IMG/VR virus record: IMGVR_UViG_3300033512_000452
Coordinates: 1 to 64,000 of that record
Direction: 5' to 3' (one strand)
Source of the DNA: a virus
DNA length: 64,000 nt
This document shows positions 7,535 to 34,505 of this stretch, piece after piece (within the stretch, counting starts at the first letter, position 1; every line of letters begins with the position of its first letter). The notes beneath the pieces are model-generated. The model did no database searches and had not been told where the DNA came from. It worked only from the letters and a program-made list of their open reading frames with translations. A program made the translations under genes and the position numbers.

Positions 7535-7538
7535 GTAA

Positions 7539-7610: not shown

Positions 7611-7627
7611 TTTAAAAAGAGGGAAAT

Positions 7628-17361: not shown

Positions 17362-19171
17362 GAAAATTTCACAGCTCGACGAAGCATTAACTGTAAACGA
17401 CGATGATTATTTGTTGATTAGTCGCGGTGGTACCTCGAATTACAAAGTTAAAACAGAAACAATTGCCGCGAAATTAGCAGAAAGTACAGATCTTGATGAA
17501 GTTAACGACGTTGTTATAACGACAGCGGAAGATAAAGATATTCTTTCTTGTTTCGTGTCTGGCGGTGTGACGACATGGATAAATAAGAAATTATCCGACA
17601 TTTCACTTGGCGATTTTGGCGGTAAAACAAATTTAAAACTAGACGATCTTGGTATCCCTGACGACAACACTGATCTCAATGCGACAACATCGCAGCATGG
17701 GTTGTTGTCGAAATTGCCAGGCGGGACAAATATCTCATTAAGGGGTGATGGTACATTTGGTGCGTCTAGTCAAAAGTTGGACGATTTTGGCGCCCCTGAC
17801 GATAACACAGACCTTAACGCAACGACGTTGCGGCATGGGTTATTGCCAAAGTTGTCCGGCGATGGTTCGAATGTATTCAGGGGGGATGGGTCTTTTTCTG
17901 ACTTGCAATTATCTGAATTATCTGGAGTTTCGTTGACCACGCCGGAAACAGATCAGGTGCTTGCTTATAATGGCGCCAATTGGATTAACAAGTATGCTGA
18001 GAGCGGCGTTGGTGGTGGGCATACTATTCAAAATTCCGGTACAAACCTTGAAACTAAAACAGTATTGAATTTCAAGAATGGTCTTGTAGCGGCGGTGAAT
18101 GGCCAATCTATTGATATCGAATGCAGTTTGCGTGAAAACGCCATCATCGGTGGTGGGTTTGACTTCTTCCAACGGACCGCTCCTGCAACGTGGACGTCTG
18201 TTTTCGAGCGCGTGTCGGGAGCGTACCCAGTAACACGAAAGTTCGGGCCCGATCGATGGGCAGTGCAGTGCAACGAGACGGCAACCGACGGGACGAAAGT
18301 TGAGGTACGACGATACAACGCTGCCCTGACCGGAGATACTGCAGGTACAAAGGTGGCTGCATTTCGACGATCAGCTGTCGGGAAGATTGCTGCGTACCAG
18401 ATTATCGAAGCGTCAACTTCGATGGCGTTGATTCCCAAAACGGTGTCGTTTCAAGTGTCCCTACGTGCCGGTGGAAATGCTCAGTCAGTCAGAGTTGGGA
18501 TCGCGAAGTGGACTGGAACAGCAAACGCTCCTTCAGTCCGCCCGATTGCGGCGTCGACTACATGGACAGCCGATCCTGCACTCGCGGCAAGCTTCACATG
18601 GTTGGCTAATTCTGCAAGTATCACCGTTCCTACAGCCTCTTTTGTGACCTCTAAAGTAAATGTCGATTTATCAACGCACACGACGCTTACAAATCTGATC
18701 GTGTTCATCTACAATGACGAAAACACGACAGCCGCTAATGATGTGCTGTATGTAAAGAACGCCGGTTTATACCCAGACAAAACACAGACTCAAGTGTGGC
18801 TACCTCGCCCATTGGAGTTAGAACTGGTTTTATGTCAGTCATATTTCTGGAAGAATTACCTAATCGATAGTGCACCTGGGTCAAGTGGCACGCCAGCTTA
18901 TGTATTTTTCGAAACATCAGTTGGGGCGGAGTGGTACTTAACTGTCGTGTTCGGTGTGACAATGAGAGTTAATCCTACAATAACATTCTTATCGAAAAAT
19001 GGATTAACTGCACGTGCGAGTAATTTTGGAGGCACAGATTATGGTCTAGACTCTGCAAAATTTGCGGTGGGCAACACTAAACAAGTAAGTGTCTATAATA
19101 ATTCAGGTTCATTAATGACTATTGGTGGTAACTTTGTTTACTTGGGTATAACGGCTGACTCTGAAATATAA
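17351..19171 (+). CDS. fiber / receptor-binding-type protein
   Basis: N-terminus MAIKKISQLDEA... is typical of fibers. Internal duplication KLDD(L/F)G(I/A)PDDNTDLNATT..HGLL.KL.G......RGDG(T/S)F. Confidence 0.6.
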   Translation: MAIKKISQLDEALTVNDDDYLLISRGGTSNYKVKTETIAAKLAESTDLDEVNDVVITTAEDKDILSCFVSGGVTTWINKKLSDISLGDFGGKTNLKLDDLGIPDDNTDLNATTSQHGLLSKLPGGTNISLRGDGTFGASSQKLDDFGAPDDNTDLNATTLRHGLLPKLSGDGSNVFRGDGSFSDLQLSELSGVSLTTPETDQVLAYNGANWINKYAESGVGGGHTIQNSGTNLETKTVLNFKNGLVAAVNGQSIDIECSLRENAIIGGGFDFFQRTAPATWTSVFERVSGAYPVTRKFGPDRWAVQCNETATDGTKVEVRRYNAALTGDTAGTKVAAFRRSAVGKIAAYQIIEASTSMALIPKTVSFQVSLRAGGNAQSVRVGIAKWTGTANAPSVRPIAASTTWTADPALAASFTWLANSASITVPTASFVTSKVNVDLSTHTTLTNLIVFIYNDENTTAANDVLYVKNAGLYPDKTQTQVWLPRPLELELVLCQSYFWKNYLIDSAPGSSGTPAYVFFETSVGAEWYLTVVFGVTMRVNPTITFLSKNGLTARASNFGGTDYGLDSAKFAVGNTKQVSVYNNSGSLMTIGGNFVYLGITADSEI

Positions 19172-20961: not shown

Positions 20962-22374
20962 ATGACTGCTGCTGAAGGATCATTCCTCGGTATTGCGAAA
21001 CAGAGCGCATTCAAAACACCTGTCACTACAGATGCGGATTTTACGTATCTTTTGTTCCGGCAGGGTTCTATTGCTGCGAATAATATTATTTTACCGCTCG
21101 ACCCCGAAGTCGGCGGAGGCGCGCTTAATCCGCGTGCTGTTGTTAAGGCTGGCGTCAACTCTGGCGGTATGTTGGATATCGTTTTCCGCCCTGAAACACT
21201 CGGTTGGTTCCTGCTTGGAATGACCGGGTCTGTAACATCGAAAGCGAACCATGCCCCAGAAGGTGTTGTTGCATACGACGATACGACTCCAATTTTGTCG
21301 TCAAGCGGCACCGACGACGTAACATTGTCTGGCGAAGTTCAGCTTTTCGTATACGCCAACGCTGCTGCAACGTTTTCTGATGCGACGCCAAATGTCGTTA
21401 CCGTTACTGGAAAGGACGCTGCGGTCGCCACTGTCACTGAGACTTTCACGCTTGATACAACGTCCACTGGAACAGACCAGGATGGCATTCGGTATTGGGT
21501 TGGCGATGCTGGTGTCTCCAAGAAATTCAAGGTTATCGAGGAGATCACCTTCACTGAAGGTCCGATCTCCGGATCTGGCGGAAAAATCGCCGTTGGGTTT
21601 AAAGACGGATCTTATTCCCACGTGTTCAAACTCGGGTCTGATCATTTCGACGCGCCCTACTACACTCTGCGCTATGCGCCGGGAAACATGTGGGGCGAGC
21701 AGTTTCAGGACTGCCGTGTGTCTGCTTTGGCGATTAACTTCGCTGGCGCTCGGTTCGTCGATGGCGCACTTCAATTTGTTGGTCGAACGCCGAGTCGCAT
21801 TTCCACAACAGGTTGGGATGCAATCAACCACCTTGATGTTGGTCCTCAGTTCTTGGCTTCTACGCCTGACTGCGCAATGGAGCTTCCGCTCGGGGACAGC
21901 GCCGCTGTTCTTTCTGGGTCTTTTGTGGCATCTTCGCAGATCCCCCTGGACGAGCAGTTTGTGGTTGGTTCTTACGAACCCGAAGGTGTTGATATCGTAT
22001 CGCGGTCGTTCGCTGTACAGATGAATATCAAAGTGACCGACGCCGACCTGTACGCAAAAATGCAGTACGACGCCGAAGGCGGTAACGCTTGGGTTGCCAA
22101 TATTTACAAAGAAGGCAACTTTAAACTCAAACTCGCATCCGGCGAGGAAGCGGCTCTGGTGAAAAAGGCAAATACGTATGGACGTAAGTATCACATTCAG
22201 ATCGCCGGTAACGGTCAGTCTAATGAGAATGCAAACGTATCCTGGACAGCGCAACCTATCGCTCTGCGCGCAGGTCGCCAGATCGTTATGCAGGTAAGCG
22301 GGACGTTCCACCCGGCGCCTGGGTTCGATCCGATCTCGATCACATTGGTCAATCGGGTAGAATCTTACGCCTAG
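20962..22374 (+). CDS. major tail protein candidate
   Basis: 470 aa, directly upstream of the chaperone/frameshift/tape-measure arrangement. Confidence 0.6.
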   Translation: MTAAEGSFLGIAKQSAFKTPVTTDADFTYLLFRQGSIAANNIILPLDPEVGGGALNPRAVVKAGVNSGGMLDIVFRPETLGWFLLGMTGSVTSKANHAPEGVVAYDDTTPILSSSGTDDVTLSGEVQLFVYANAAATFSDATPNVVTVTGKDAAVATVTETFTLDTTSTGTDQDGIRYWVGDAGVSKKFKVIEEITFTEGPISGSGGKIAVGFKDGSYSHVFKLGSDHFDAPYYTLRYAPGNMWGEQFQDCRVSALAINFAGARFVDGALQFVGRTPSRISTTGWDAINHLDVGPQFLASTPDCAMELPLGDSAAVLSGSFVASSQIPLDEQFVVGSYEPEGVDIVSRSFAVQMNIKVTDADLYAKMQYDAEGGNAWVANIYKEGNFKLKLASGEEAALVKKANTYGRKYHIQIAGNGQSNENANVSWTAQPIALRAGRQIVMQVSGTFHPAPGFDPISITLVNRVESYA

Positions 22375-22436: not shown

Positions 22437-22877
22437 ATGGTAAAAAGTGAAATCGAAAAAACAGAGGATAAAAGTAAACTAAACGGAAAGATGGCGTTTG
22501 GTAAATACGCAATTCTTTCGTCGGTTACTTATCAACTCAAAAAAGAGCCTGATTGGTATTGGGTAATCAAACCTTTGACAGTTGATACAGACATTAGAAT
22601 CCAGCAGTTGCTGATTGCGAATCAGCGATTTGTTACGGGCGCGGATGGCGATCCTATTCGGGTGCCTGCTGCGGAGTTGGAAGTTGGCGTGTATCAGGTC
22701 GCGGCAACTTTCGAAGAAACGAACATTCCAGATCCGGAAAATCCAGAAAAACCAATCATTGAAAAAGGAGCGAGTATGACTTCTGCTATCGCGAAGTTAA
22801 AAACTTTCCCCTACGAACTCTTAATGGAGCTCTGGAATGCTGTTATTGAGGCAAACCCTCCTTCGGATCTGGAATAA
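22437..22877 (+). CDS. tail assembly chaperone (G-like)
   Basis: 146 aa, immediately before the tape-measure-position ORF. An open -1 frame follows its end. Confidence 0.7.
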   Translation: MVKSEIEKTEDKSKLNGKMAFGKYAILSSVTYQLKKEPDWYWVIKPLTVDTDIRIQQLLIANQRFVTGADGDPIRVPAAELEVGVYQVAATFEETNIPDPENPEKPIIEKGASMTSAIAKLKTFPYELLMELWNAVIEANPPSDLE

Positions 22878-23107
22878 TTAGTGACCTGAACGAGCTCGAG
22901 GATTATGTACGAGATTACTGCCTTGAGGAAAAAGCAGATGACATGATCTTAAATATGTACATCGGGTTAGCGAGTAAAGAAAGAAACGGCCATCATTTGT
23001 TTTCGCCCCTTGAAGAACCGTGGTTCTGGGCAAACTTTGTCAAAACATGGATACAAATGGGGATCGATGAGCGAGATCGCATGAAGGTCGGTGCGTTAAA
23101 GATATAA
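22437..23107 (+). CDS. chaperone -1 frameshift extension product (GT-like)
   Basis: The -1 frame is open from 22850 to the TAA at 23105-23107. It encodes ...SDLNELEDYVRDYCLEEKADDMILNMYIGLASKERNGHHLFSPLEEPWFWANFVKTWIQMGIDERDRMKVGALKI. Confidence 0.6.
22853..22859 (+). promoter_or_regulatory. candidate slippery heptamer A_AAC_CCT
   Basis: The only X_XXY_YYZ-type site inside the 22850-22877 overlap window. Codons are GCA AAC CCT in the zero frame. Confidence 0.45.
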
Positions 23108-23130: not shown

Positions 23131-23163
23131 AGCCCCCAGGTTTTCCTCTACCTGGGGGCTTTT
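23131..23163 (+). terminator. strong hairpin with short T-tract upstream of the giant ORF
   Basis: AGCCCCCAGG-10 nt-CCTGGGGGCT followed by TTT. Confidence 0.5.
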
Positions 23164-23176: not shown

Positions 23177-26100
23177 ATGAGTAAAGCAACAAGGGCTATT
23201 TTAAGAAGATACGAAGAACGCAAAAACCTTGCCGGATTACGTCCGAACGCTAAAGGGTACGAAATGCCAAACATCGAAAGCGACGATGACTTTGAGCAAT
23301 ACAACCTAGAGCAACGAGCGAAAGAGTTTTGGTCTAGTCTTCACCCTGAGTTATCTTCTCCTATCCCTTTAACAAATCCAGCGGCTGGATATGAAGATAT
23401 TCGAACCTTATACGCAAACCTTCCGCCAGCGCAGCCTACAACAAGAATGTCAACCAAAGAGGATTGGAATGCAAGTCTTTTATCCAGCGCCAGCAGAGAT
23501 CTTGATGAATACGAGGTTATGTCTGGTTTTAGCCAACCTAAGAGAAAACCTCAAACTCCTACGCCGTTAGGTTTGCCTACATCTAGATCCTTTAGGTCTA
23601 TGATGGCATCGACGATAGCCAAAGAGATAACAATTCAACCTACTGAGTCTGAAAATGCCTTAATTTACGCAAGAGAAAATCCGACAGTTAACACGTTAAT
23701 GCGGGCTTACGATCCATCTCTAGCAAGAAATACAGTTAATCTTGGTCAATATGATTCAAGAAGCAATGAAACTATCTTCGAAATGAGCAACAGGCAACGA
23801 GCGCGAGAAACGAAAGGCGGATCATCTTTCGTAATTAACACGCTTGGTGTTGCATTTAACCGGCAGGTACATTCATCTCTTAAGAATCAACTTGGATTCG
23901 TTCCATTAATGGAAAATCTTACTCTTGCGCAAGAAAAAGATATCATGCTGATTCCAGGATACTCGCCGGAAGTTGACGAAATCAGGAATTCCGACTCCTT
24001 TAAGCAAGCTATGTTAGAAAGAGGGGGATCAGAGAGAGAAGCTCTCCTTGAAGCTATCGGCGGGTTGAATGTTCCTTTTGTGAAATTATCCCCAGACGCT
24101 AAACCTACCAGATATCAACGCGGAGGGAAAGATAACAACAAATTCCTTCCTACTGAAACTGGCGGGTATGTGTTTGATTCCAGCACAGATAGATTTGTTC
24201 CATATAATCCTAAGAACGCGTACTCATTAAGCGACGATATGCTTGAGAAGATCAAGGGCGTGCTTGGTGGAACACACGTTGATTTTATGCGCAAAGAACA
24301 GCGCGACGCTATGACAGGAATTGTTCGCGACACAAGAAACGCCGCGCCTGAAGTTGATTTCTCAACAATTGCTATTGAATACTTCCAGGGAATGCTTCAA
24401 TATGCCGTTGGTAATGTTGATAAAAGAATTGAGATTGAAACAAAAAAGGCTGGTGGAGCCTTGCATAACCCGGATGGCTTAAGGGACAATATTAAAACTC
24501 AGATTGCAAGGATGTTTTCTGCTTCTACTGAAATTTATAATTTCTTTAACGCCCAATATGCCCACGGTGTAGACCCCGACGCGAATAAAGAACCGGATCA
24601 CGAATCTGCTAAAAGATCCCTTAGTGACTTCAATAACGCATATGCTCTTGCTGCATATCCAAAAATGAAAGACACTAGCTTCTTGTCTTTTTCTGATATC
24701 TCTACGTTTTTTAATTTAGGAAAGACAGTCCCTTCCGTCAATGAAAATGGTAATGTATTTCTAAAAAATAAAAGAAAAAAAATAGAGATAAAAAACGAGT
24801 TAGTAGAGGTCAACAACTTCCCGAGAAATCTTCAAGTAACTCAAACAGTATCGAGGTCAATGTTGTCTTTCGGGACACTTACTGGCGCACACTTGGAGCT
24901 TGACGGGCGAGATTCAATAGAGACGATGCAGGCCGCTGATGCTGATGTCTTTGAAAGTTTGATCGCATTTAAGGGTGGGTACAAACAAGATAATTTGTTC
25001 GCGTATCTATTCGGTAAAGTTATATTCAATACATTTAAAAAGACAGATCAAAAGCAAAGTCAAGCGCTCGCACAGTATACCCTCGCTAATAGTAATCCTC
25101 AATTCGGGGAGAGAGTTGCTCTTCAAAACTCTGCCGTAACCGATTACGACAAAAGAAGATATCAAATCGGAAGTTTTATGAAAAGACTGGGCGTGCAGAG
25201 CATTCCAGTTCCAGGCTTCTTTTCGAAAAACGGAGAGCTAAATGATGGTCAAGGCTTAATTAACCTTGATGATATTCGCGTTACAGACCCCAAAAAGGTT
25301 AAAGAGTATTGGCGTCAAAAACTTATTAACCAAGAGAACGCCAGACACGAATCAAGTATGGCGGCTTATAAATCTGCGTATACAACTGAAACCAACTTTA
25401 ACGCAGAAGAAAGAATATCCAAACTTAGAGAGCAACAAGAAATTGTAGATCAATATGCTTTTCGCAGAATCGATATAGACGATGTTTTTGAAACTTACGC
25501 GGATTTTGACCGTCGGATAAAGGAAACAAAAAACTTACCAATGCCGATAGGTAATCGGGTAAATAATCTCTCTGTGCTTTCAGAGATCCACGCAAAAAAC
25601 ATATCAGAAATCGATAAATTTAAAGCCGCTAATGCCGCTAAAAAATTTGGTTATTTTTATGATTACAAAAGAGTCCCAGAAGGTTACGCCCCTTTAGTTC
25701 TCAATAGTGACGATTCTGGGATTGTCCGAGATATGGTATTGCCAAATCCAGGACTAAAACAAGGGGACTACCCTGCATCAATCAAGAAAATGATGAATGC
25801 CATCGTAATGATGTACTCTGCTGAAGGCATTGGGGTAATGGGAGAGACAAAACAAGAAGCAGATATGTCTGAATTGGGTGATGCTCTTGATCGCAGTGAG
25901 ATGGTTGTGTTTGGCGGTCGCTTGATTAATAGAGTTTCCATGGACAAAGAGTTCCCTGGTGGTGCATCGGAGTTGTGGGGCGTTAATTCAAATGAAACAG
26001 AAGAGGATTCTGATTTCGCTAATACAGCGCCTGGGTACAGCAAGGATGGGACATCGGAATTTAATACAGCATTGTCTCGTGAGAGAAGTGCGTTAATTCT

Positions 26101-29100
26101 TATGGCTAAAGATGCCGCAAAACGTCTTGGTAAATCAGTGAAAATAACAAAAGATACAACCATTGAGAAATTACGAGAGATTGTTTACAGCGAATCTAAT
26201 TGGATGAAGACGATGGTCGACGACGCGATAACAAATGGCGGAAAAGGTGGTTTTAATCCATACAATTTTGATCCTAGTTATAAAACAGCCAGCATAGCGA
26301 TAAGTAAAGCGACAAGATTAAACACTAGCACTATGGAACGCGTTGGCGATGGATGGAAGGTTCCGGCGCAACCAATTAATGCTTTATTGGCCGCTGTTGA
26401 CAATGCGTTCTCGAGATTTACTAGAAATAGTCCGGTTTCCGGCGCCGGAAATAATCCCTTGACTGTTCCAGAAAAACAAGGTCCAGTAAAAGCTAATGTA
26501 CCTTACACGTTGAAAGGTCAGACTGGCGAGAGATTACCTACACCTGATGAACTCAATGAATTAGGCGTTGATTTAGAGGAGTACAAAAAAATAATGAATA
26601 AAAAAGGCGGATCCGGTGCTTATATACATCTTGAGGCGAGGATAGGTGAATCTCTTAATAATCAGAGCGATCGAATGGAATCTATTCGATATGGTTTAAG
26701 TAAAATTGGCGTACCAATAGGTCGCAAAAAAGCAGAGGCTCCAGAAAATCGCCCAGCACTTCCTGCTGGAAACTTTGCCAGTAACGTGTGGGGAAGATTT
26801 AGAGCAGAGGCTCCAGAGAAATATGGACCAGAGAGCGAGGTTTTGGCTCCCTACTTCAGCGAGATGAATGGTATTTCAAGAAAAGAGTTAGATAATCGTG
26901 CAATGACGGCATCTAAGATTATTCAAGATCGCCGGTCTGGACTTGAAAATCCGATAACTTCTTACGGTAATATCTTGGATGATTATCTTGACAATTATTA
27001 CGGTCGAGGGATAGAAAACAAAGAGGCTTTTGAGACTTGGGTTAGTGATCGTGGAAGTTCAGATCCTGTTGAGTTTGGTAAATTTATGTCTCAAGTCTTT
27101 GTGCCCCTTATTGGACAGCATACGTATATCAAACAAAGCAACCGCGGGGAATACGATCATGCCGGAACTGTTTACAATGAATTAAGTCGTATCATCCCCA
27201 AAGCGTCAGAGATGCTCCCGAAGATGTCAGAGGTACTCGCTGCAGGGGAGCCCAACGATGTTGTTGGCGATCAAACGAATGTCTCAAGTACCTTGAATGA
27301 CGTTCTTTACCCTCGATATTCAGATAAAATTAATGGAATTTTATCAAGGGTAAACGATTCTATATCATCTGGGCGCAACTTCCTTTTGGGCAGCCCTCCA
27401 GGATCGCAGAAGACTTCTGCCATTTATCAGGCTGTAAGTGCACGCCCGGGGTTGGGGATTATTACTACGCCGTTGAGCAGCTTGAGTCGTGGGCACGAAT
27501 CAAGATTTAGAAAAGGCTTGGCCGAAAACGGTATTTACGACGTCCCTAGCACTTTCTTTTTAGGTGGGCATCCCGGGGAATTTGATCCTGACAGAATGGA
27601 CCAGGCAGAGTACGACAAAGACGTTGCTGAGTACAATAATTCGCATTACGAATTCCTAAGAGCCGTAATGGAGAAATCAGGCGTGGATGCGGTCTTTCGC
27701 GGTGTTGACGAGTCTGGCGAGTATACGACACGAAAATACTCTATTGATGAAGCAAGAGGGCCTAATTTTAGGAATTTCATTGGACGAGGAACTCATCCAT
27801 GGAGCGCTTTTGTCGATTTATATGGAACGCCGAAATTCAAAAGAAGTGTCATTAATGAGAATACGTCGGAAGACAATCGTGTTGTTGCGATTATGTCGCC
27901 GGAAAAGCTCTCTCATCTACAGGGAGAGAATGGCGAAAATCCAAGTAAACTTGGCAGGATAATAAACTATTTAAAGAATGAAGACCAGATTGGAGCAATT
28001 GCGATTGATGAGGTCCAGAAGGGATTTACAGACGCAAACGTTTCCAGGCCTGATTTACTTGATCAAATCAGAGTTGCGAGAGATGAATATCCTCGCGTTC
28101 CAGTGATGATGGCAGGTGGTTCGTTGGATCCTGATGATGTTGACATGATCAAAGATTTCTTCTCCGAGCAAGGGATTGATTCCCATTACGAAAGAACGAA
28201 CATGAGTAAATATATTGACCCTGATGTTATTCTTGCAAAAAGAGATCAGTGGGGGAAGATTGCAGCCGAAAGAATGAATCAAGATCCAAATTTGCTTACA
28301 TACGTTGATTCAACATCAAGGGCAAACGAGATTTACGGTATTGTTTCAGCAGGTGGTCAAGACGCTCATATCCAGCACAAAGGAACTGGTGACAAAAGAT
28401 TTCCTGGCGCGGTTTCAAGGGAAATGAACGAGGATGTCTCTAGGCATATCTCAGACAGAACCAACATGCCGAGAACAGTCGCAACCGGCGCAATGGGGGA
28501 AGGTATTGATATGCCTTGGGTTAAAAACACCCAACTTATTGGTATCCCGAATAATACTGACGAAATAATGCAAAGAGCTATGCGAGCACGCGAATCGAAT
28601 ATGGGCCCAGGAGAACGTTCTACTGTAACAATGATCACAGACCTCGATGAAATCCAAAAACGAGCAAATGGAATCAAGGAAACGGCAGCGAGTGTTACTC
28701 CAAATTCGATTCTTGCCGCTTTCAGAAGAGTTCAGGGTTTCTTGACCAATGGTGACGCTTCTCCGAATTGGAAGATAAGCGGAAAGCAAATAGAAGACGT
28801 AATCGGTGATACGCTTTATGCTTCGACAAATAATCACACGTCTCGTCTTCACGCTGGAATGGTTAAAGGAATCATGGCAACATCTGGTCTTCTCGCTATG
28901 GATGGCGATGATGGGTTTAATTACACAATTCACAATGATGTCTCTGAATTGAGTGACGACGATATCAAAAAGAAATTAAACGATGGCGTATACAAAGACC
29001 CAGAGACACTCGTTGATAACCCATTAACTATGCAGGAGTATGTCAATAAGTCAGCGAACTACAGAAAAACATTAATGATGAGTGCTTATCATAGTATCCG

Positions 29101-32100
29101 CCACCAACATATTCGCCAAAGTTTAGCAAAAATTACAGCAGAGGCGCCAGACAATAAGCCAAACTTTATGGTTCCTGGCCAAGAAAACCTATTCTTGAAA
29201 ATTAAAACAGAAAACGGAATGGAATATCAGAAAGCAACTGGCGGTAGTGGCCCTGATTTTTCAGAGATCAGCGAGTTAGATATTGTCACAGCTCAACAAC
29301 GCGGAGAGATTGTTGGTACGATCCATGATCATATTTCTGCTCATGGTCGATCTGGTTTTTCGAGTTCTGATAAAGAATTATCCGCTCTTGGGAGCGTTGA
29401 AGTTGTCGAGTCAACAGGTTTGAAGAGATTTGAAGCTAACGCTAAAGGAGACAATTTCGTCAGCGATAGTTCTCCTAGTTTTGACCTCAAAGCAATAGAA
29501 AGTGCATTTGCCAAAGTTGTTAAATCCTTGAATAACTTTGGTGGGCGCATGGAAGAAATAAACGAAGCCATGGCTGATGGTACATCTAGCCTTAGCAAAA
29601 ACATGGTTGCGTTTAATTCTGTGATAAAAGATTTAACACCAGACGAAAGATCTGGCGTGTCAAATATCGCAAAACAACAGCAAGGGCTTTATTCGGCGGC
29701 GGGAAATGATCTCCTGGCTGGTTTCGTTGCCCAAAAATTAGATCCTTTATATCAACCACGCTCTAATTCCCAATCATTTGACTTCTATCAACCTTCTACC
29801 GGAAAAACATTTGATCCCATTCAAGCAGCGAGAGCTGCGCAAGCGGAGCAAAGAAGTGCTTTAGTTGAATCTAGTAGGAAGGACTTCTTCGCCAGAAGTG
29901 GTGTTTCCTCAAACGAAATCGCCAAAAGATATGGTGTTAGTAAAGAAACGCTCGTAGGCAGAATGAGGCAGGACGCTTTTCGTGGTTTTTCTGATACAGA
30001 TGGTTCCCCGAGAGGCGTTGGAGAAAGAGCCAAAATTGACGGAGTTTCAGTATCTGAGCAGATTGGAAATATCCTTATTGAGAGAGAAGAAGGCAGAAAG
30101 AAAACACTGTCAATCTATGGGAGTGATATATCTCGCGGCACAGTCAATAAAGCTCTCGCAAAAAGAGGTATGCTTTTTGATGAAGCAAGTATCGGCGATG
30201 TAAATGACATTATTTCCGAAAGCGAAGCTCAAAATGCGACATCCGTTGAACGCAAAAGATCTATTCGCAGATTTGAGATATCTACTGGCGGACAATCTTC
30301 TAAGGCGCTTACTCATTTCTCTGGTGGAATGACAGATACTGAAATATCAGAAATGCCTGAGCAGGAGTATCAACAGTTAACCGAAAGAGTTACGGAAACA
30401 ATAGAGTCAGTCAGGGGTCGCGTTGAAGGAATTAAGCAACTTGGCAACATGGCCGGAAAAGTCCTCAAACAGGCAGCCGATATCCAAGGAAGAGATTTAT
30501 TATCTAGAGATGAAGACACATTAGTTACGCGCGGAAAACAAGGATTATCTCCTGTAAGTGATGACGAGTTATCCGGGATGATAGGGAGAGCCAATTCTTG
30601 GGAGGATATGTTCTCGGGTCTTGCTGGCGGTAGGTACGGAAGAAAGCTAGGCATATTTAGAGGGAAGCAAATTAATGAACGTAAAGCCAACCGCTCATTA
30701 AGTGAACTGATTGGGTCAGATGAGATCGATGAAGATATCTTTTCAATGGATCCTGATGAGTTAGTTGATCGTCCTGGTATGTTTGGTGGATTAAAAGACA
30801 GACTTCGCGGAAGGCAAACGAGAAAGGATCACGTTGCTGAACAGATTCACGAACAACAGGATATCCAGGATAATCAATCTGTTTTCAAACGACCAATGAT
30901 CCAAGCAGCATTCGCTGGATACATTGTCGGTAACGCCTTTTCTCAAATAGCTGGCAGCTCTCTTCAAAATGCTTATCAATATACAGCGCAGAATCCATAT
31001 ATGCAATCTTCTGGGTTCTCACCGTTCTCAGGGACTGGTTCTGGGTTTGCTTTACGCCAAAAAGTAAACGAAGAGGAGTTGGGCAAGAGTTTCCAGGAAT
31101 CTCACGGTATATCTATGAGCTTGGGGTATATGAATCTTGGATTCGGGAAAGCTTTACAGAGCGCTCAATACGGAGTTGGGATCATGGCCGCAGGCGTATC
31201 TGCGGCGGAGTCTGTTTCAAGTATTGCATTTCAGCAGTCCATGATGGGCACAACCCCTAAAGCAATGAAGGCGTTAGGTAAAGCTGCTGGGATTGGTGGG
31301 GCAATTGCCGCTACAGTCGGTACACTTACTTCAGTTTTTGATGTCGCAAACGAGCCATTAGCTGATTATATTTTTGACAAAGAGAAACTTGGCGAAAGAA
31401 GCTACACAATTGGAACAGGACCAGATTCCTTCATTGCTAATAACGCGTTATTGGATACGTTGTCAAAAGAAACAAAACTTGATTTTTGGGATGATCCTAT
31501 AACGCGAATCGGTACGAATATCAATTCTTTTATCCCTGGTATGGGTACCGCTGTATTTGAAGCCAACAAACAATACGCAAATTCATTAGGATTATCTAAC
31601 GAAGAAATCCTCAAAGCGATGCCTAAGAGAGTCGCTGACGTATTAGCTCCGCTTGTTGAGTCGGAAGAACACAAAAAAGCGTCTGATTTAAACGATCGGG
31701 CTATTGAAAATCTCCAGAGAGCAGGTCTTGGCGTTACTAGAGAGCAGGCTTCGCCAATAACCGACGGCGCTATGGACGTTTTTGGTAACAACGCCTCTGT
31801 CACCTACTCTGAAATAATGGGTGACTACTATGAGCAATATGGAATCAAAGCAAGCGTAACCGATTCTATGTTAAAAAACACAGCGACCGCAAGTGGTTAC
31901 AGAAGAGACAGCAGGGAGATGTATGACTTGTTGGCGGATTTCTCTTCTGCTGGTTCAGAGAGTGGAGCTTATAACACCTTCGAGAGAAAGAGTCAGACGT
32001 TTTCTGCGACAGCTAATACGACTGGATTAATTTCTGCTTTAAATCCAGGAATCGACACGAGTGTTGATAGGGCACGTGTGCATGATTGGTATGAATCGTC

Positions 32101-33970
32101 TACATCAAACGCTATTACAAAAAGCACAGTCATGGACCTATACAACCAAGTGGCGCCGACAGTTAAAGGCTACGGTCAAAATACTGGAATTGATTTGCTA
32201 AGCCTGATGGATAAAGCTTTCGCTGGATACAACGAAGACACTGTGAATTTAATGAGTCAGTCCATCCAGGGGGATGTTAATGCTCAGTCATGGCTTGCGA
32301 ATACAAACCCAGAAGCGCTGAAGGCTGCTGGCGGCGATCCGGATTCAATGCGTTGGTTTGATACAAAAGGAGATAATTTATTCCAATCAAACCCGATTGA
32401 AGCTTCACGTCAATTCTTAAATCTGTCCAGAACTAACACCGCTGGCGGAATCGAAGCTCGGAGACAAATTAGTAAATACGGGATTAGTCGCTCAGAATCT
32501 AACGCAATGTCTGGCTCTCAATTATTAACAAAGATGGGTGTGGACTCCGGCATTGTTAATACGTTAGAAAAAACTGGTTGGGGTTTTGAAGATCTTGGCA
32601 ATCCGAGTTTAACAAAAACAGTTGACGGTGTTACGTACAGCACGCCAGCTTACAATATAAATAAACTTCAAGATCAATCTTTTGGGCTTCAATATGCTGG
32701 CGTTGCAGCTCAGCAAGAATACAACGCGGCATCTCGTCCGATTCAAGATGAAATAAATAGGATACAACATAAATCACAACTGAGGTCATTCAAGCAACAA
32801 AGGTCTAATATCGAAACCAATAGATCTTTTGAGTTACAACAAAACGCAATATCATATGACCGCATGACAACGGGTCACGAGTACCAGCGTTGGCAGACCG
32901 AGTTTAACCGAGAGGCTCAATTACAAGAAAGGGGTTGGACCAGGGAAGATTGGGGTTATCAGGATTGGCAGAGTGGTTTCCAGCGCGAGACAAGTTTGCT
33001 TCAGCGCGATTGGAGTAGATCTGATAATAAATACTCAGCGACACAACGCGCATCCTCTCGCTCTCTTGATTTAAGCCAAAGACAGTGGGCCGTTGAAGAT
33101 CAACAATTTAACCGCCAAGTATCCGGTTTGCAGTTTAGTTGGTCAATGGAAGATTTCGATGAAAATATTAGATTCTCATCTGGCAGGGAAAGGAAAAATT
33201 TAATCAAGCAGCGTGACCGCGCTGTAACCACCCAGAACCTCGAAGAAGGTCAGACTGAAAAACAAAACTCTCGTCAAGCTAAAGTGTGGGCGAAACAAGA
33301 TGAAATGTGGACGAAAGAGTCTGATCATATTTCGGAGATCAATAAAAGACAAGAAGATCTTTGGGCACGCGAAGATGAAATGTGGACGAAAGAGAAATCC
33401 CACATTGAAACTATTCGCAATCGGCAGGAAGAGGTCTGGAAAAAAGAAGATAAGCAATATACCAAACAAAAAGAGTATTCCGAAAAACTTATGGCTCTCG
33501 ATTTGTTGCAGTACAACTTAACAGTTGCTCAGCAAACAGCATCTTACAATATGCAAAAAGAAAATCTTATAAATCAAGAAAAAGATTATAAGAAGTTATA
33601 CAAACTCCAAAAGGACCAAATTGATCTGCAAAGGAGTTACGAAGACAAGCAGATTGCCCTCCAACTCGCAAGTATCGCCAACTCTCAAGCACAGTTAGCT
33701 GAGCAAAGAAAAATGACTGTTGGAATTAAGGATTTCGGCCAAGCCGCAAGTGCCGCTTTGGACGCTTCAACCTTGAGGGCTAAAATGGCACCGTTGGCAA
33801 CTGCCATTGAATACATAAGCAATATGGTGGATAACATAAACAATCTTGATACGAATAAAACAAATGCACTTGAGTGGACTATTGATACGTTGGATGGTCT
33901 TGACACTTACAGACTTCAACAACTTCGTAATTTTATTTACGATATCAACAACTCAAACCCACCGGACTAA
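23177..33970 (+). CDS. giant 3597-aa tail protein: tape-measure-like C-terminal third fused to a long N-terminal region with an SF2 helicase-like core (polyvalent-protein type)
   Basis: Uninterrupted ORF in the tape-measure position. The C-terminal part has hydrophobic Gly/Ala-rich segments (GVGIMAAGVSAAE, AAGIGGAIAATVGTL) and periodic Trp repeats (RWQTEF, EDWGYQDWQ, RDWSRSD, KVWAKQDEMWTKE, DLWAREDEMWTKE, EVWKKED). Confidence 0.8.
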   Translation: MSKATRAILRRYEERKNLAGLRPNAKGYEMPNIESDDDFEQYNLEQRAKEFWSSLHPELSSPIPLTNPAAGYEDIRTLYANLPPAQPTTRMSTKEDWNASLLSSASRDLDEYEVMSGFSQPKRKPQTPTPLGLPTSRSFRSMMASTIAKEITIQPTESENALIYARENPTVNTLMRAYDPSLARNTVNLGQYDSRSNETIFEMSNRQRARETKGGSSFVINTLGVAFNRQVHSSLKNQLGFVPLMENLTLAQEKDIMLIPGYSPEVDEIRNSDSFKQAMLERGGSEREALLEAIGGLNVPFVKLSPDAKPTRYQRGGKDNNKFLPTETGGYVFDSSTDRFVPYNPKNAYSLSDDMLEKIKGVLGGTHVDFMRKEQRDAMTGIVRDTRNAAPEVDFSTIAIEYFQGMLQYAVGNVDKRIEIETKKAGGALHNPDGLRDNIKTQIARMFSASTEIYNFFNAQYAHGVDPDANKEPDHESAKRSLSDFNNAYALAAYPKMKDTSFLSFSDISTFFNLGKTVPSVNENGNVFLKNKRKKIEIKNELVEVNNFPRNLQVTQTVSRSMLSFGTLTGAHLELDGRDSIETMQAADADVFESLIAFKGGYKQDNLFAYLFGKVIFNTFKKTDQKQSQALAQYTLANSNPQFGERVALQNSAVTDYDKRRYQIGSFMKRLGVQSIPVPGFFSKNGELNDGQGLINLDDIRVTDPKKVKEYWRQKLINQENARHESSMAAYKSAYTTETNFNAEERISKLREQQEIVDQYAFRRIDIDDVFETYADFDRRIKETKNLPMPIGNRVNNLSVLSEIHAKNISEIDKFKAANAAKKFGYFYDYKRVPEGYAPLVLNSDDSGIVRDMVLPNPGLKQGDYPASIKKMMNAIVMMYSAEGIGVMGETKQEADMSELGDALDRSEMVVFGGRLINRVSMDKEFPGGASELWGVNSNETEEDSDFANTAPGYSKDGTSEFNTALSRERSALILMAKDAAKRLGKSVKITKDTTIEKLREIVYSESNWMKTMVDDAITNGGKGGFNPYNFDPSYKTASIAISKATRLNTSTMERVGDGWKVPAQPINALLAAVDNAFSRFTRNSPVSGAGNNPLTVPEKQGPVKANVPYTLKGQTGERLPTPDELNELGVDLEEYKKIMNKKGGSGAYIHLEARIGESLNNQSDRMESIRYGLSKIGVPIGRKKAEAPENRPALPAGNFASNVWGRFRAEAPEKYGPESEVLAPYFSEMNGISRKELDNRAMTASKIIQDRRSGLENPITSYGNILDDYLDNYYGRGIENKEAFETWVSDRGSSDPVEFGKFMSQVFVPLIGQHTYIKQSNRGEYDHAGTVYNELSRIIPKASEMLPKMSEVLAAGEPNDVVGDQTNVSSTLNDVLYPRYSDKINGILSRVNDSISSGRNFLLGSPPGSQKTSAIYQAVSARPGLGIITTPLSSLSRGHESRFRKGLAENGIYDVPSTFFLGGHPGEFDPDRMDQAEYDKDVAEYNNSHYEFLRAVMEKSGVDAVFRGVDESGEYTTRKYSIDEARGPNFRNFIGRGTHPWSAFVDLYGTPKFKRSVINENTSEDNRVVAIMSPEKLSHLQGENGENPSKLGRIINYLKNEDQIGAIAIDEVQKGFTDANVSRPDLLDQIRVARDEYPRVPVMMAGGSLDPDDVDMIKDFFSEQGIDSHYERTNMSKYIDPDVILAKRDQWGKIAAERMNQDPNLLTYVDSTSRANEIYGIVSAGGQDAHIQHKGTGDKRFPGAVSREMNEDVSRHISDRTNMPRTVATGAMGEGIDMPWVKNTQLIGIPNNTDEIMQRAMRARESNMGPGERSTVTMITDLDEIQKRANGIKETAASVTPNSILAAFRRVQGFLTNGDASPNWKISGKQIEDVIGDTLYASTNNHTSRLHAGMVKGIMATSGLLAMDGDDGFNYTIHNDVSELSDDDIKKKLNDGVYKDPETLVDNPLTMQEYVNKSANYRKTLMMSAYHSIRHQHIRQSLAKITAEAPDNKPNFMVPGQENLFLKIKTENGMEYQKATGGSGPDFSEISELDIVTAQQRGEIVGTIHDHISAHGRSGFSSSDKELSALGSVEVVESTGLKRFEANAKGDNFVSDSSPSFDLKAIESAFAKVVKSLNNFGGRMEEINEAMADGTSSLSKNMVAFNSVIKDLTPDERSGVSNIAKQQQGLYSAAGNDLLAGFVAQKLDPLYQPRSNSQSFDFYQPSTGKTFDPIQAARAAQAEQRSALVESSRKDFFARSGVSSNEIAKRYGVSKETLVGRMRQDAFRGFSDTDGSPRGVGERAKIDGVSVSEQIGNILIEREEGRKKTLSIYGSDISRGTVNKALAKRGMLFDEASIGDVNDIISESEAQNATSVERKRSIRRFEISTGGQSSKALTHFSGGMTDTEISEMPEQEYQQLTERVTETIESVRGRVEGIKQLGNMAGKVLKQAADIQGRDLLSRDEDTLVTRGKQGLSPVSDDELSGMIGRANSWEDMFSGLAGGRYGRKLGIFRGKQINERKANRSLSELIGSDEIDEDIFSMDPDELVDRPGMFGGLKDRLRGRQTRKDHVAEQIHEQQDIQDNQSVFKRPMIQAAFAGYIVGNAFSQIAGSSLQNAYQYTAQNPYMQSSGFSPFSGTGSGFALRQKVNEEELGKSFQESHGISMSLGYMNLGFGKALQSAQYGVGIMAAGVSAAESVSSIAFQQSMMGTTPKAMKALGKAAGIGGAIAATVGTLTSVFDVANEPLADYIFDKEKLGERSYTIGTGPDSFIANNALLDTLSKETKLDFWDDPITRIGTNINSFIPGMGTAVFEANKQYANSLGLSNEEILKAMPKRVADVLAPLVESEEHKKASDLNDRAIENLQRAGLGVTREQASPITDGAMDVFGNNASVTYSEIMGDYYEQYGIKASVTDSMLKNTATASGYRRDSREMYDLLADFSSAGSESGAYNTFERKSQTFSATANTTGLISALNPGIDTSVDRARVHDWYESSTSNAITKSTVMDLYNQVAPTVKGYGQNTGIDLLSLMDKAFAGYNEDTVNLMSQSIQGDVNAQSWLANTNPEALKAAGGDPDSMRWFDTKGDNLFQSNPIEASRQFLNLSRTNTAGGIEARRQISKYGISRSESNAMSGSQLLTKMGVDSGIVNTLEKTGWGFEDLGNPSLTKTVDGVTYSTPAYNINKLQDQSFGLQYAGVAAQQEYNAASRPIQDEINRIQHKSQLRSFKQQRSNIETNRSFELQQNAISYDRMTTGHEYQRWQTEFNREAQLQERGWTREDWGYQDWQSGFQRETSLLQRDWSRSDNKYSATQRASSRSLDLSQRQWAVEDQQFNRQVSGLQFSWSMEDFDENIRFSSGRERKNLIKQRDRAVTTQNLEEGQTEKQNSRQAKVWAKQDEMWTKESDHISEINKRQEDLWAREDEMWTKEKSHIETIRNRQEEVWKKEDKQYTKQKEYSEKLMALDLLQYNLTVAQQTASYNMQKENLINQEKDYKKLYKLQKDQIDLQRSYEDKQIALQLASIANSQAQLAEQRKMTVGIKDFGQAASAALDASTLRAKMAPLATAIEYISNMVDNINNLDTNKTNALEWTIDTLDGLDTYRLQQLRNFIYDINNSNPPD
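26436..26451. repeat. exact copy of the 16-bp palindrome
   Basis: Inside the giant ORF, read as SGAGN. Confidence 0.95.
27360..28610 (+). other. SF2 helicase/ATPase-like core inside the giant ORF
   Basis: Motif I-like LGSPPGSQKTS (about 27388), motif II AIDEVQ (about 28006), motif V-like TVATGAMGEGIDMP (about 28474), motif VI-like MQRAMRAR (about 28566). Gln replaces the usual Gly in motif I and the usual His in motif II. Confidence 0.6.
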
Positions 33971-34049: not shown

Positions 34050-34505
34050 ATGAACAGTTATATTTCGCTTGATCACGGAGCTGGTTATATAGGAATGGAA
34101 GATGATAGTATTGTTTCTTTAGAAGATGAAACAATGCTTGTTTCGCAGGATTATTCTCTTGGCTTTTTTTCAACGCCAATGAAAAATTGGGATCCAATAA
34201 TTGTGCGCCCTGCGTCAGTTAAATACACACTCAATGGAGAAGCCTATTCTGTGTATGGGTATGGAAGCAATAAGGAATGGGATGGCTTTATTATTGCTGG
34301 TGTAGCTGAAACAGACGAGCTTTCAAGTGTGGACACTTTACGCGAATTACTTTCCGTTAATGATAATATTCGTTTTACTGACCATTACGGAAACGAGTAT
34401 ACCGTTGTTTCTATTGGGCCATTTCAAGAAAAGCATCTACTGTCTGATTGGGAAAATAAAAATAATCGCGTCTTTATCAAAACAAGACTTGTTGAGGTTA
34501 AATAA
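34050..34505 (+). CDS. distal tail protein candidate
   Basis: ATG at 34050 after GAGGT. 151 aa directly after the tape-measure-position ORF. Confidence 0.5.
   Translation: MNSYISLDHGAGYIGMEDDSIVSLEDETMLVSQDYSLGFFSTPMKNWDPIIVRPASVKYTLNGEAYSVYGYGSNKEWDGFIIAGVAETDELSSVDTLRELLSVNDNIRFTDHYGNEYTVVSIGPFQEKHLLSDWENKNNRVFIKTRLVEVK

What the first reader, a model, noticed from the sequence alone, without database searches (positions are those of the whole stretch)
27360..28610. SF2 helicase-like ATPase core embedded in the giant tail ORF, with substitutions in motifs I and II
Ordered motifs are LGSPPGSQKTS (I), AIDEVQ (II), TVATGAMGEGIDMP (V) and MQRAMRAR (VI). The spacing between motifs I and II is long, about 200 aa. 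Gln replaces the usual Gly in the P-loop and the usual His of DExH. A helicase or translocase module inside a tail-channel protein could act on DNA or RNA during ejection, or as a counter-defense ATPase comparable in idea to P1 DarB. It could equally be catalytically dead.
Basis: partly seen in the sequence, partly recalled or inferred. Interest (0 to 1): 0.65.

Follow-up and report, generated by a model that had tools for sequence, protein, structure and literature searches.

The report
RecQ-like helicase inside giant tape-measure protein
A real RecQ-type DNA helicase domain sits inside the 3,597-residue tail tape-measure protein of an uncultured temperate phage, which suggests the enzyme enters the host with the DNA, although this copy has an unusual change in its ATP-binding loop.

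Summary
All four motifs lie at the stated coordinates in ORF 23177-33970.

They belong to a genuine two-lobed SF2 core, residues 1375-1920:
- A profile of it and seven relatives hits RecQ structures at E=1.6e-20.
- hhalign against RecQ gives 99.8% probability.
- The AlphaFold model matches BLM, RECQL5 and RecQ at E down to 9e-15.

Motif details:
- The P-loop Gly to Gln change (PPGSQKT) is unique to this copy; all seven relatives have Gly.
- DExQ is typical of the family.
- The 199-residue gap between motifs I and II comes from an insertion of about 100 residues.

The host ORF sits where a tape-measure gene sits. It follows a tail-tube gene and a chaperone with a conserved -1 frameshift. It has no cysteines.

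The conserved C-terminal module occurs in about 25 syntenic loci of one phage lineage. Only a subset of them carry the RecQ-like module. One carries an SF1 UvrD-like helicase instead. The helicase is therefore a swappable cargo.

Most likely it is delivered at the head of the entering DNA and acts on that DNA. Whether this copy still hydrolyses ATP is open. I found no description of such a fusion in the searched literature.

The parts
23177..33970 (+). Giant ORF of 3,597 aa with no cysteines, in the tape-measure (pilot) gene position
   Evidence: Single ORF. An RBS (GAAGGAG) lies 5 nt upstream of the ATG. It follows the tube and frameshift-chaperone genes and precedes the conserved 1,511-aa tail protein, with synteny in 17+ loci. 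It has 0 Cys against 1.03% in the other ORFs.
23177..27298 (+). N-terminal 1,374 aa; variable, with no recognisable domain
   Evidence: No Pfam or PHROG hit. Not conserved with the relatives.
27299..28936 (+). RecQ-like SF2 helicase module, aa 1375-1920
   Evidence: Alignment A1. PDB profile search gives RecQ 1.6e-20. hhalign 99.8%. AF2 model plus Foldseek match BLM, RECQL5 and RecQ.
27386..27418 (+). Motif I (Walker A) LGSPPGSQKTS. Lys1412 and Thr1413 are kept; Gly to Gln at aa 1411 (CAG, nt 27410-27412)
   Evidence: All seven relatives have G-K-T. A public-run contig confirms the codon.
27467..27487 (+). Motif Ia, TPLSSLS (RecQ has SPLISLM)
27584..27880 (+). Insertion of about 100 aa between motifs Ib (LGGHPGEF) and Ic (MSPEKL). 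It accounts for the 199-aa spacing between motifs I and II
   Evidence: Alignment. Spacing table. Modelled as a small alpha/beta subdomain with pLDDT 83-90.
28001..28018 (+). Motif II (Walker B) AIDEVQ. Asp1611 and Glu1612 are invariant in the family
28475..28516 (+). Motif V, TVATGAMGEGIDMP (RecQ has VATVAFGMGIDKP)
28568..28591 (+). Motif VI, MQRAMRAR. Gln1799, Arg1803 and Arg1805 are invariant in the family
28640..28936 (+). Family-specific helical extension after the RecA2 lobe, with an invariant Trp1865 (NWK motif). It has no Cys, so no RecQ-type zinc site
31175..31348 (+). Two Gly/Ala-rich hydrophobic segments (aa 2667-2685 and 2703-2724). These are candidate membrane-inserting segments of the tape-measure part
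   Evidence: Kyte-Doolittle scan. Equivalent segments lie about 750-940 aa from the C-terminus in all relatives.
32144..33967 (+). Conserved C-terminal module, rich in Trp, Gln, Glu and Arg. It includes EDFDENIRFSSGRERKNLIKQRDR at nt 33149-33220
   Evidence: Shared colinearly with all relatives. Profile A3 recovers 26 further loci.
20962..22374 (+). Tail tube protein, 470 aa
   Evidence: Pfam Phage_tube_2 at 28.6 bits against a cut-off of 27. 40-50% identical across the related loci.
22437..23107 (+). Tail assembly chaperone with a programmed -1 frameshift of the G/GT type. The slippery site A_AAC_CCT is at 22853-22859. The 0-frame stop is at 22875-22877 and the -1 frame stays open to 23107
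   Evidence: Sequence and translation. The -1 frame extension is conserved as protein in at least 8 related loci.
34505..39040 (+). Conserved 1,511-aa protein downstream; candidate distal tail or tip protein
   Evidence: Homologues directly follow the giant ORF in all related loci. No family hit.

Best explanation
SHOWN:
- Nucleotides about 27299-28936 encode a genuine two-lobed SF2 helicase core whose nearest relatives are RecQ-family DNA helicases.
- It is one module of a 3,597-residue, cysteine-free protein encoded where long-tailed phages encode their tape-measure protein. That position is directly after the tail-tube gene and a chaperone with a -1 frameshift.
- The protein's C-terminal third (hydrophobic segments plus a conserved Trp/Gln-rich module) is shared by a whole lineage of uncultured phages. 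The part upstream of it is variable.
- About eight known members carry the RecQ-like module. One carries an SF1 UvrD/RecD-like helicase at the equivalent place. Others carry neither.

INFERRED:
- The helicase is a cargo domain riding on the tape-measure (pilot) protein.
- At infection the tape-measure protein leaves the tail first, C-terminus leading. Its hydrophobic segments insert in the envelope.
- The upstream part lies next to the leading DNA end in the virion. It would be threaded unfolded into the cell, which would explain the absence of cysteines. There it refolds and engages the entering genome as an ATP-driven 3'-5' DNA translocase or helicase. It could help pull the DNA in, or process or guard its leading end.

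For this copy, Lys/Thr of motif I, Asp/Glu of motif II and Gln/Arg/Arg of motif VI are all intact. The Gly before the P-loop lysine is Gln, which probably weakens nucleotide binding. This copy may therefore be a slow enzyme or mainly a DNA binder.
For: Helicase identity:
- Family profile against PDB gives RecQ 1.6e-20 and BLM 2.4e-15.
- hhalign 99.8%, E=1e-27, across both RecA lobes.
- AF2 pLDDT 71; Foldseek BLM 9e-15, then RECQL5, RecQ and RECQ1.
- Relatives P0002 and P0003 pass the Pfam DEAD cut-off.
- The catalytic residues K, T, D, E, Q, R, R are invariant across sequences only 21-37% identical.

Tape-measure position:
- Pfam Phage_tube_2 on the upstream gene.
- Slippery A_AAC_CCT, with a -1 frame extension conserved as protein in related loci.
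- Synteny of capsid, adaptor, tube, chaperone, giant ORF and the 1,200-1,550-aa protein in every locus.
- Hydrophobic segments at a constant distance from the C-terminus.

Cargo nature:
- The C-terminal profile finds 26 more loci of the same lineage, none with the RecQ-like module.
- L012 has Pfam UvrD-helicase at 59 bits with intact SF1 motifs.
- L013 has a complete 1,402-aa version.

Unfolded transit:
- 0 Cys in 3,597 aa against 1.03% in the other ORFs of the window, P about 7e-17.
- 0-2 Cys in all relatives.

Geometry:
- In phage 80alpha the tape-measure N-termini sit next to the DNA end, via the tail completion protein. The tape-measure protein is thought to leave as a pilot with the DNA (bioRxiv 10.1101/2024.12.10.627806).

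The phage has its own DnaB-like replicative helicase, so this module is not the replication helicase.
Against: - No direct evidence that the protein is in virions or enters the cell.
- No Pfam, PHROG or PDB tape-measure family matches any part of it. The tape-measure assignment rests on position, chaperone, composition and synteny.
- A folded RecA core cannot fit in a tail-tube lumen, so unfolding and refolding must be assumed.
- About 2,650 residues upstream of the hydrophobic segments have no assigned place in a virion.
- The Gly before the Walker A lysine is nearly universal in P-loop NTPases (established knowledge), so this copy may not hydrolyse ATP.
- Roughly half or more of the related phages do without any recognisable helicase, so the activity is not essential for DNA entry in this lineage.
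- RecQ accessory domains (Zn-binding, RQC, HRDC) are not detected.
Confidence: 0.55

Rival explanations
1. Pseudo-enzyme. In this phage the helicase core no longer turns over ATP. It serves as a nucleotide-independent DNA clamp or end binder, or merely as a structural spacer in the giant protein.
For: The Gly to Gln change at the residue before the Walker A lysine is unique among the eight family members. The window copy is the most divergent member, 21-26% identical, and departs from 20 of 56 family-conserved positions, several of them in motifs Ia and Ib. Many related phages lack the module altogether.
Against: All other catalytic residues (K1412, T1413, D1611, E1612, Q1799, R1803, R1805) are retained. 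Retention of family-conserved columns (0.64) is no worse than in P0007 (0.66), which has a canonical GKT. The open frame and predicted fold are intact. Small non-Gly residues at this position occur in active ATPases such as MCM (my knowledge); a residue as large as Gln is untested.
Confidence: 0.25
2. Counter-defence effector. The injected helicase acts against host nucleic-acid-targeting immunity or nucleases, the same idea as P1 DarB and the 'polyvalent proteins'. For example it could strip host proteins from the entering DNA or hide its ends. It would not be involved in moving the DNA.
For: The module is optional and is replaced by a different helicase superfamily in L012. It evolves much faster than the structural proteins of the same genomes: helicase 21-26% identity against capsid 57-61% and tube 41-49%. 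This pattern is typical of conflict genes. Large injected multidomain proteins with SF2 helicases are a known anti-restriction theme (PMC5512222). The best PADLOC hit is the defence-system helicase DpdF.
Against: There is no methyltransferase, no zincin peptidase (no HExxH) and no polyvalent-protein-specific Pfam domain. The helicase is RecQ-like, not the SNF2-like type of DarB. tblastn found no match in the phage collection.
Confidence: 0.15
3. The helicase part is not delivered. The giant protein is cleaved, or the helicase works in the producing cell, for example in recombination, replication or tail assembly. Only the C-terminal part would become a virion component.
For: Tape-measure proteins are often processed (and my knowledge). 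The minimal family member has only 1,402 aa.
Against: The cysteine-free composition extends over the whole 3,597 aa, including the helicase, and over all relatives. This is hard to explain for a purely cytoplasmic enzyme, given that a RecQ fragment has 7 Cys in 458 aa. No protease domain or motif was found. The phage has a separate replication module.
Confidence: 0.04
4. The motifs are a chance resemblance and there is no RecA-like fold.
For: The window sequence alone gives only marginal scores: Pfam E=0.079 and PDB E=0.008. The single-sequence AF2 model was poor, pLDDT 40.
Against: The profile, profile-profile and structure comparisons are all decisive. Relatives pass the Pfam DEAD threshold.
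Confidence: 0.01

Closest known systems
RecQ-family DNA helicase catalytic cores (E. coli RecQ 1OYW, C. sakazakii RecQ 4TMU, D. radiodurans RecQ 4Q47, human BLM 7AUD, RECQL5, RECQ1)
   Same: Two RecA-like lobes. Motifs I, Ia, II, III, IV, V and VI are in order. Motifs Ia and V are close to the RecQ wording. These are the best sequence and structure matches.
   Different: No Zn-binding domain (0 Cys), and no RQC or HRDC detected. Motif 0 glutamine and the aromatic-rich loop are not conserved. Motif II is DExQ. Motif VI is QxxxRxR rather than QxxGRxGR. There is an insertion of about 100 aa in lobe 1. It is embedded in a 3,597-aa virion-type protein.
DpdF helicase of the Dpd (7-deazaguanine DNA modification/restriction) system
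   Same: Best PADLOC match: window domain 2.9e-6, relative P0003 2.7e-16. It is another RecQ-like SF2 core.
   Different: DpdF is a host defence-island protein of about 600 aa with no tail context. The similarity is at the level of the shared SF2 core only.
Phage P1 DarB and the 'polyvalent proteins' of phages and conjugative elements (Iyer et al. 2017, PMC5512222)
   Same: Very large multidomain proteins thought to enter the host with the DNA. Several contain an SF2 helicase.
   Different: Those helicases are SNF2-related and paired with an adenine methyltransferase. Many also have a zincin peptidase. None of these is present here. DarB is head-packaged, not a tape-measure protein (my knowledge). 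tblastn found no match in the phage collection.
Phage N4 virion RNA polymerase gp50 (about 3,500 aa)
   Same: A giant virion protein with a central nucleic-acid enzyme, injected with the DNA and acting on the entering genome. It must pass the tail unfolded (my knowledge; analogy only).
   Different: Its enzyme is a T7-like RNA polymerase, not a helicase. N4 is a podovirus and gp50 is in the capsid. No homology was detected.
Tape-measure proteins with embedded enzyme domains (T5 pb2 peptidase, mycobacteriophage TM4 Rpf-like motif)
   Same: Precedent for a catalytic domain carried inside a tape-measure protein (my knowledge). Same gene position after the tube and frameshift chaperone.
   Different: The known embedded domains are small cell-wall hydrolases acting outside the cytoplasm. 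Here the cargo is a 546-aa ATP-dependent DNA enzyme that can only work in the cytoplasm. No Pfam tape-measure family matches.

Membership tests
SF2 helicases | Two tandem RecA-like alpha/beta lobes | tested here: met
   AF2 model from alignment A1 (pLDDT 71, pTM 0.71). Foldseek against BLM, RECQL5 and RecQ at E 9e-15 to 1e-10 over 440-600 columns. hhalign covers both lobes.
SF2 helicases | Motif I (Walker A) GxGK[ST], with the lysine and the hydroxyl residue | tested here: inconclusive
   Lys1412 and Thr1413 are present and invariant in the family. The Gly before Lys is Gln in the window only.
SF2 helicases | Motif II DExx (Walker B) | tested here: met
   D1611-E1612-V-Q. Asp and Glu are invariant. 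Five of seven relatives have DEAQ and two have DExH.
SF2 helicases | Motif VI Gln plus arginine finger(s) | tested here: met
   Q1799, R1803 and R1805 are invariant in all eight sequences.
SF2 helicases | Nucleic-acid-stimulated ATPase and unwinding activity | not testable with these tools
   Needs biochemistry.
RecQ family proper | RecQ C-terminal Zn-binding domain (four Cys) | tested here: not met
   The protein has no cysteine. hhalign stops at the end of lobe 2.
RecQ family proper | RQC winged-helix and HRDC domains | tested here: not met
   No Pfam RQC or HRDC hit. The profile-profile alignment does not extend beyond lobe 2. The model shows a family-specific helical region ending in a helix plus hairpin, so a cryptic winged helix is not excluded.
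RecQ family proper | DEAH motif II, aromatic-rich loop and motif 0 glutamine | tested here: not met
   Motif II is DEVQ. The loop after motif II lacks the RecQ W/H/F residues; only the Arg is kept. The motif 0 Gln position is not conserved.
Tape-measure protein of long-tailed phages | Gene lies directly downstream of the tail-tube gene and of a chaperone pair made by a programmed -1 frameshift | tested here: met
   Phage_tube_2 hit. Slippery A_AAC_CCT at 22853-22859, with a -1 frame extension conserved in at least 8 related loci.
Tape-measure protein of long-tailed phages | Match to a curated tape-measure family or solved tape-measure structure | tested here: not met
   No Pfam, PHROG, NCBIfam or PDB hit outside the helicase.
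Tape-measure protein of long-tailed phages | Present inside the tail, sets its length, and is expelled at infection | not testable with these tools
   Needs virions. Hydrophobic segments and the Trp-rich helical C-terminus are consistent with this role.
DarB-like / polyvalent proteins | Methyltransferase plus SNF2-like helicase dyad, often with a zincin peptidase | tested here: not met
   No methyltransferase or peptidase domain, and no HExxH. The helicase is RecQ-like. Family definition taken from PMC5512222.

The most novel reading that the evidence does not exclude
The lineage uses a membrane-anchored, virion-delivered helicase as a motor. The tape-measure part anchors in the inner membrane and the attached 3'-5' translocase reels the genome into the cytoplasm. 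This would be enzyme-driven genome internalisation in a long-tailed phage. RecQ-like and UvrD-like motors would have been recruited independently for the same job.
Probability: 0.15. Interest if true: 0.85.

Novelty: new variant of a known kind. Interest (0 to 1): 0.62.

Why it matters
How long-tailed phages get the last part of their genome into the cell is poorly understood. So is what the tape-measure protein does once it is expelled.

A tape-measure protein that carries a cytoplasm-only, ATP-dependent DNA enzyme implies that part of it reaches the cytoplasm with the DNA. That would make the protein a delivery vehicle for enzymes.

Two unrelated helicase superfamilies occupy the same slot in sister phages. 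This points to selection for helicase activity at the moment of entry. It also gives natural controls: members with a canonical helicase, with the Gln P-loop variant, and with no helicase.

The complete absence of cysteine over thousands of residues may be a usable sequence signature for proteins that phages thread through their tails.

Tried and rejected
- Single-sequence AlphaFold of the domain gave pLDDT 40 and was unusable.
- The word-indexed homologue search with the 600-aa region found nothing. With the helicase alignment it found only ordinary RecQ proteins.
- The exact giant protein is not on record in the contig index.
- Megablast and tblastn of the helicase, the C-terminal module, the tube protein and 23 kb of the window against 50,697 phage records gave no match. 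The capsid matched only at 22-25% identity, to Bacteroides, Bacillus and Burkholderia phages.
- The GTDB genome scan found no relative. The one viral-contig hit to the helicase (L003) was marginal and was not used.
- Pfam and PHROG scans of seven other segments of the giant protein gave nothing above threshold.
- The whole-protein family profile against PDB returned helicase hits only and no tape-measure structure.
- The SF1 domain of L012 had no PDB hit by phmmer.
- Pfam scans of 11 helicase-less giant ORFs gave one sub-threshold Sigma70_r2 hit and nothing else.
- Full-text searches found no paper that links tape-measure proteins with RecQ, UvrD or a helicase domain as part of the protein.
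- Generalised decay of the window's helicase was considered and not supported. Its retention of conserved columns is similar to P0007.
Full report
**1. The observation**

The region lies in a single open frame, 23177-33970 (+), of 3,597 codons.
- LGSPPGSQKTS, aa 1404-1414, nt 27386-27418.
- AIDEVQ, aa 1609-1614, nt 28001-28018.
- TVATGAMGEGIDMP, aa 1767-1780, nt 28475-28516.
- MQRAMRAR, aa 1798-1805, nt 28568-28591.

The P-loop lysine and the motif II aspartate are 199 residues apart. The Gln codon is CAG, two substitutions from any glycine codon. A contig assembled from a public microbial-mat metagenome run covers it without a difference. A simple sequencing error is therefore unlikely.

**2. 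Is it more than chance?**

With the window sequence alone the evidence is thin:
- Pfam Helicase_C E=0.079 on the whole protein and 0.009 on the domain.
- PHROG 16 'DNA helicase' E=7e-4.
- RecQ chains E=0.008, although both lobes align in the right order.
- The word-indexed homologue search found nothing.
- A single-sequence structure prediction failed, pLDDT 40.

The exhaustive search of 1.84 billion representatives found eight relatives. Seven of them are giant proteins of 1,742-3,200 aa. Two of these pass the Pfam DEAD gathering score.

An alignment of the eight helicase regions (A1) gave the decisive results:
- A profile that hits RecQ structures at 1.6e-20 and BLM at 2.4e-15.
- A profile-profile match to a RecQ alignment at 99.8% probability, E=1e-27, over both RecA lobes.
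- An AlphaFold model (pLDDT 71, pTM 0.71) whose best PDB neighbours are BLM (9e-15), RECQL5, RecQ and RECQ1.
- Best viral neighbours that are RecQ-like helicases of giant viruses.

The fold is there.

**3. The motif peculiarities**

- All seven relatives have G-K-T in motif I (PPGSGKT, PPGWGKT, TGYGKT and so on). Only the window has Q-K-T.
- Motif II is DEAQ in five relatives and DExH in two. The glutamine is therefore a family trait, not a lesion. DEAQ also occurs in active SF2 ATPases such as INO80 (my knowledge).
- The long spacing between motifs I and II comes from an insertion of about 100 residues between the LPGHPG (Ib) and MSPEKF (Ic) motifs. The length of this site varies across the family (106-163 residues in relatives). 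The model folds the insertion as a small alpha/beta subdomain with pLDDT 83-90.
- K1412, T1413, D1611, E1612, Q1799, R1803 and R1805 are invariant across sequences that are only 21-37% identical. This argues that ATP hydrolysis is selected for in the family.
- The window copy is the most divergent member. It keeps 36 of 56 family-conserved columns, about the same as P0007, which has a canonical P-loop. There is no sign of general decay.
- The glycine before the Walker A lysine is almost universal in P-loop NTPases, and its replacement usually weakens nucleotide binding (established knowledge; not tested here). Whether this copy is active remains open.

**4. Not a true RecQ**

- The alignment to RecQ ends with lobe 2.
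- There is no cysteine at all, so no zinc site.
- No RQC or HRDC domain was found.
- The motif 0 glutamine and the aromatic-rich loop are not conserved.
- After lobe 2 there is a family-specific helical region with an invariant tryptophan (NWK).
- Among defence-system models the best match is the RecQ-like helicase DpdF.

**5. What the giant ORF is**

Gene order upstream:
- Large terminase.
- SPP1-type portal.
- Major capsid protein.
- SU10-type adaptor.
- A tail-fibre-like protein.
- A 193-aa protein.
- A 470-aa protein that passes the Pfam Phage_tube_2 threshold.
- A 146-aa ORF (22437-22877).

That last ORF ends with the canonical slippery heptamer A_AAC_CCT (22853-22859). The -1 frame stays open to 23107. 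The -1 extension is conserved as protein (EDYVRD...LEEPWF..FV..WI) in at least eight related loci. This is the G/GT-type chaperone frameshift that precedes tape-measure genes in long-tailed phages (established knowledge: Xu, Hendrix and Duda 2004).

The giant ORF follows at once. It is itself followed by a small conserved protein and a 1,511-aa protein conserved in all relatives.

The giant protein also has:
- Gly/Ala-rich hydrophobic segments at aa 2667-2724.
- A Trp/Gln/Glu/Arg-rich C-terminal module. In all relatives the hydrophobic segments lie about 750-940 residues from the C-terminus.

No curated tape-measure family or structure matches it. The assignment therefore rests on position, chaperone and composition.

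An integrase (51386-52516) and a DnaB-like helicase (43003-44391) show a temperate phage with its own replication helicase. The phage has no close relative among 50,697 deposited phage genomes. Its DNA is found in microbial-mat and lake-water metagenomes.

**6. The helicase is optional cargo**

Full-length comparison shows two colinear conserved parts among the eight giants: the helicase, and the last 600 or so residues. The N-terminal 1,374 residues of the window protein are unique.

A profile of the C-terminal module (A3) recovered 11 viral contigs and 15 metagenome contigs. They belong to the same phage lineage, with these identities to the window:
- Capsid 48-61%.
- Adaptor about 45%.
- Tube 40-50%.
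- Chaperone about 32%.

All have a giant ORF in the same position. Complete ones run from 1,402 to 3,413 aa, and almost all are cysteine-free.

None of these 26 loci has the RecQ-like module, including those long enough to show it.

One locus, L012, instead has an SF1 UvrD/RecD-like helicase at aa about 999-1450. It scores 59 bits on Pfam UvrD-helicase, E=7.5e-16, with intact GEAGTGKT, DEINQ, NYR and TAHAGQGSE motifs.

A 1,402-aa member (L013) appears to be the minimal form.

The rest of the variable regions match nothing known, apart from a sub-threshold Sigma70_r2 hit in L010.

The helicase also diverges much faster than the structural proteins of the same genomes: 21-26% identity against 57-61% for the capsid.

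**7. Cysteine**

The giant protein has no cysteine in 3,597 residues. The other ORFs of the window average 1.03%, giving P about 7e-17 under a simple binomial.

Its relatives total more than 17,000 residues with one cysteine. The helicase-less giants are the same. A RecQ fragment found in the same search has 7 Cys in 458 aa.

I read this as selection against disulfide formation in a protein that must stay threadable and cross an oxidising compartment. It is inference, but it covers the helicase part as much as the tape-measure part.

**8. Mechanism**

In phage 80alpha the N-termini of the tape-measure trimer sit at the neck, next to the DNA end via the tail completion protein. The C-termini sit at the tip. 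The protein is thought to leave with the DNA as a pilot (bioRxiv 10.1101/2024.12.10.627806).

Applied here, the C-terminal module would leave first and its hydrophobic segments would insert in the envelope. The upstream cargo, nearest the DNA end, would follow into the cytoplasm and refold. The helicase would then act on the entering genome. It could pull the DNA in as a tethered 3'-5' translocase, or unwind or guard its leading end.

The recruitment of two unrelated helicase superfamilies to the same slot supports selection for helicase activity at entry. Its absence from many sister phages shows it is an accessory rather than a core part of DNA delivery. That pattern also fits a counter-defence role.

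Steps shown:
- Fold.
- Family.
- Gene position.
- Frameshift chaperone.
- Modularity.
- Composition.

Steps inferred:
- Presence in the virion.
- Unfolded transit.
- Cytoplasmic action.
- Substrate.
- Activity of this copy.

**9. Comparison with known systems and novelty**

- RecQ cores are the closest relatives of the domain, but the RecQ family's accessory features fail the membership test.
- P1 DarB and the polyvalent proteins share the idea of a large injected protein with an SF2 helicase. Those are SNF2-like and paired with a methyltransferase, often with a zincin peptidase (PMC5512222). None of these is present here.
- N4 virion RNA polymerase is a functional analogy only.
- Tape-measure proteins with embedded muralytic domains are a precedent for catalytic cargo, but for enzymes that work outside the cytoplasm.
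- Full-text searches found no description of a helicase domain within a tape-measure protein.

I rate this as a new variant of a known kind, of moderate to high interest. The main weaknesses are that the phages are uncultured and that this particular copy has a doubtful P-loop.

Noticed in passing
window 22437-23107 (slippery site 22853-22859): The 146-aa ORF upstream of the giant gene ends with the canonical -1 slippery heptamer A_AAC_CCT. The -1 frame continues for 82 codons to 23107, and that extension is conserved as protein in related loci. This is a G/GT-type tail assembly chaperone frameshift.
   Followed up: yes
window 23177-33970, and giant ORFs of L001-L027: The 3,597-aa protein has no cysteine. 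Its relatives and the helicase-less giants of the same lineage have 0-2. The other ORFs of the window average 1.03% Cys. This may be a signature of proteins threaded through the tail and periplasm.
   Followed up: partly
L012 3050-11056 (helicase at about 6044-7400): In a sister phage (66-kb IMG/VR contig) the giant tape-measure-position ORF carries an SF1 UvrD/RecD-like helicase with intact motifs (Pfam UvrD-helicase, 59 bits) instead of the RecQ-like SF2 module.
   Followed up: partly
window 29906-29971 (giant protein aa 2244-2265): The segment SSNEIAKRYGVSKETLVGRMRQ looks like a helix-turn-helix. It gives weak, sub-threshold Pfam hits to HTH_11, HTH_7 and HTH_psq (E 0.03-0.15). It could be a second DNA-binding element downstream of the helicase.
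   Followed up: no
window 23132-23163: A GC-rich hairpin (GCCCCCAGG, a 10-nt loop, CCTGGGGGC) followed by TTTT lies between the chaperone extension and the RBS of the giant ORF. It looks like an intrinsic terminator and could attenuate expression of the giant gene.
   Followed up: no
L010 5042-8191 (giant ORF aa 112-145): A helicase-less giant ORF gives a sub-threshold Pfam Sigma70_r2 hit (22.9 bits against a cut-off of 24, E=7.7e-5). This hints that other cargo types, such as a transcription factor, may ride on the same scaffold.
   Followed up: no
window 39782-41608 (-), 43003-44391 (-), 51386-52516 (-), 7538-7611 (+): The opposite-strand half of the window holds a replication and lysogeny module: a 608-aa P-loop protein hitting primase, DnaC-like and Sak4-like PHROGs, a DnaB-like helicase, and a tyrosine integrase. 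A tRNA-Thr(TGT) lies near the left end.
   Followed up: no
window 17312-19171 (+): A 619-aa tail-fibre-like gene (phrog_9729) sits between the adaptor and the tube module, overlapping the end of the adaptor gene. The syntenic loci L001, L004 and L006 have no gene there, so it looks like a lineage-specific insertion in the structural module.
   Followed up: no
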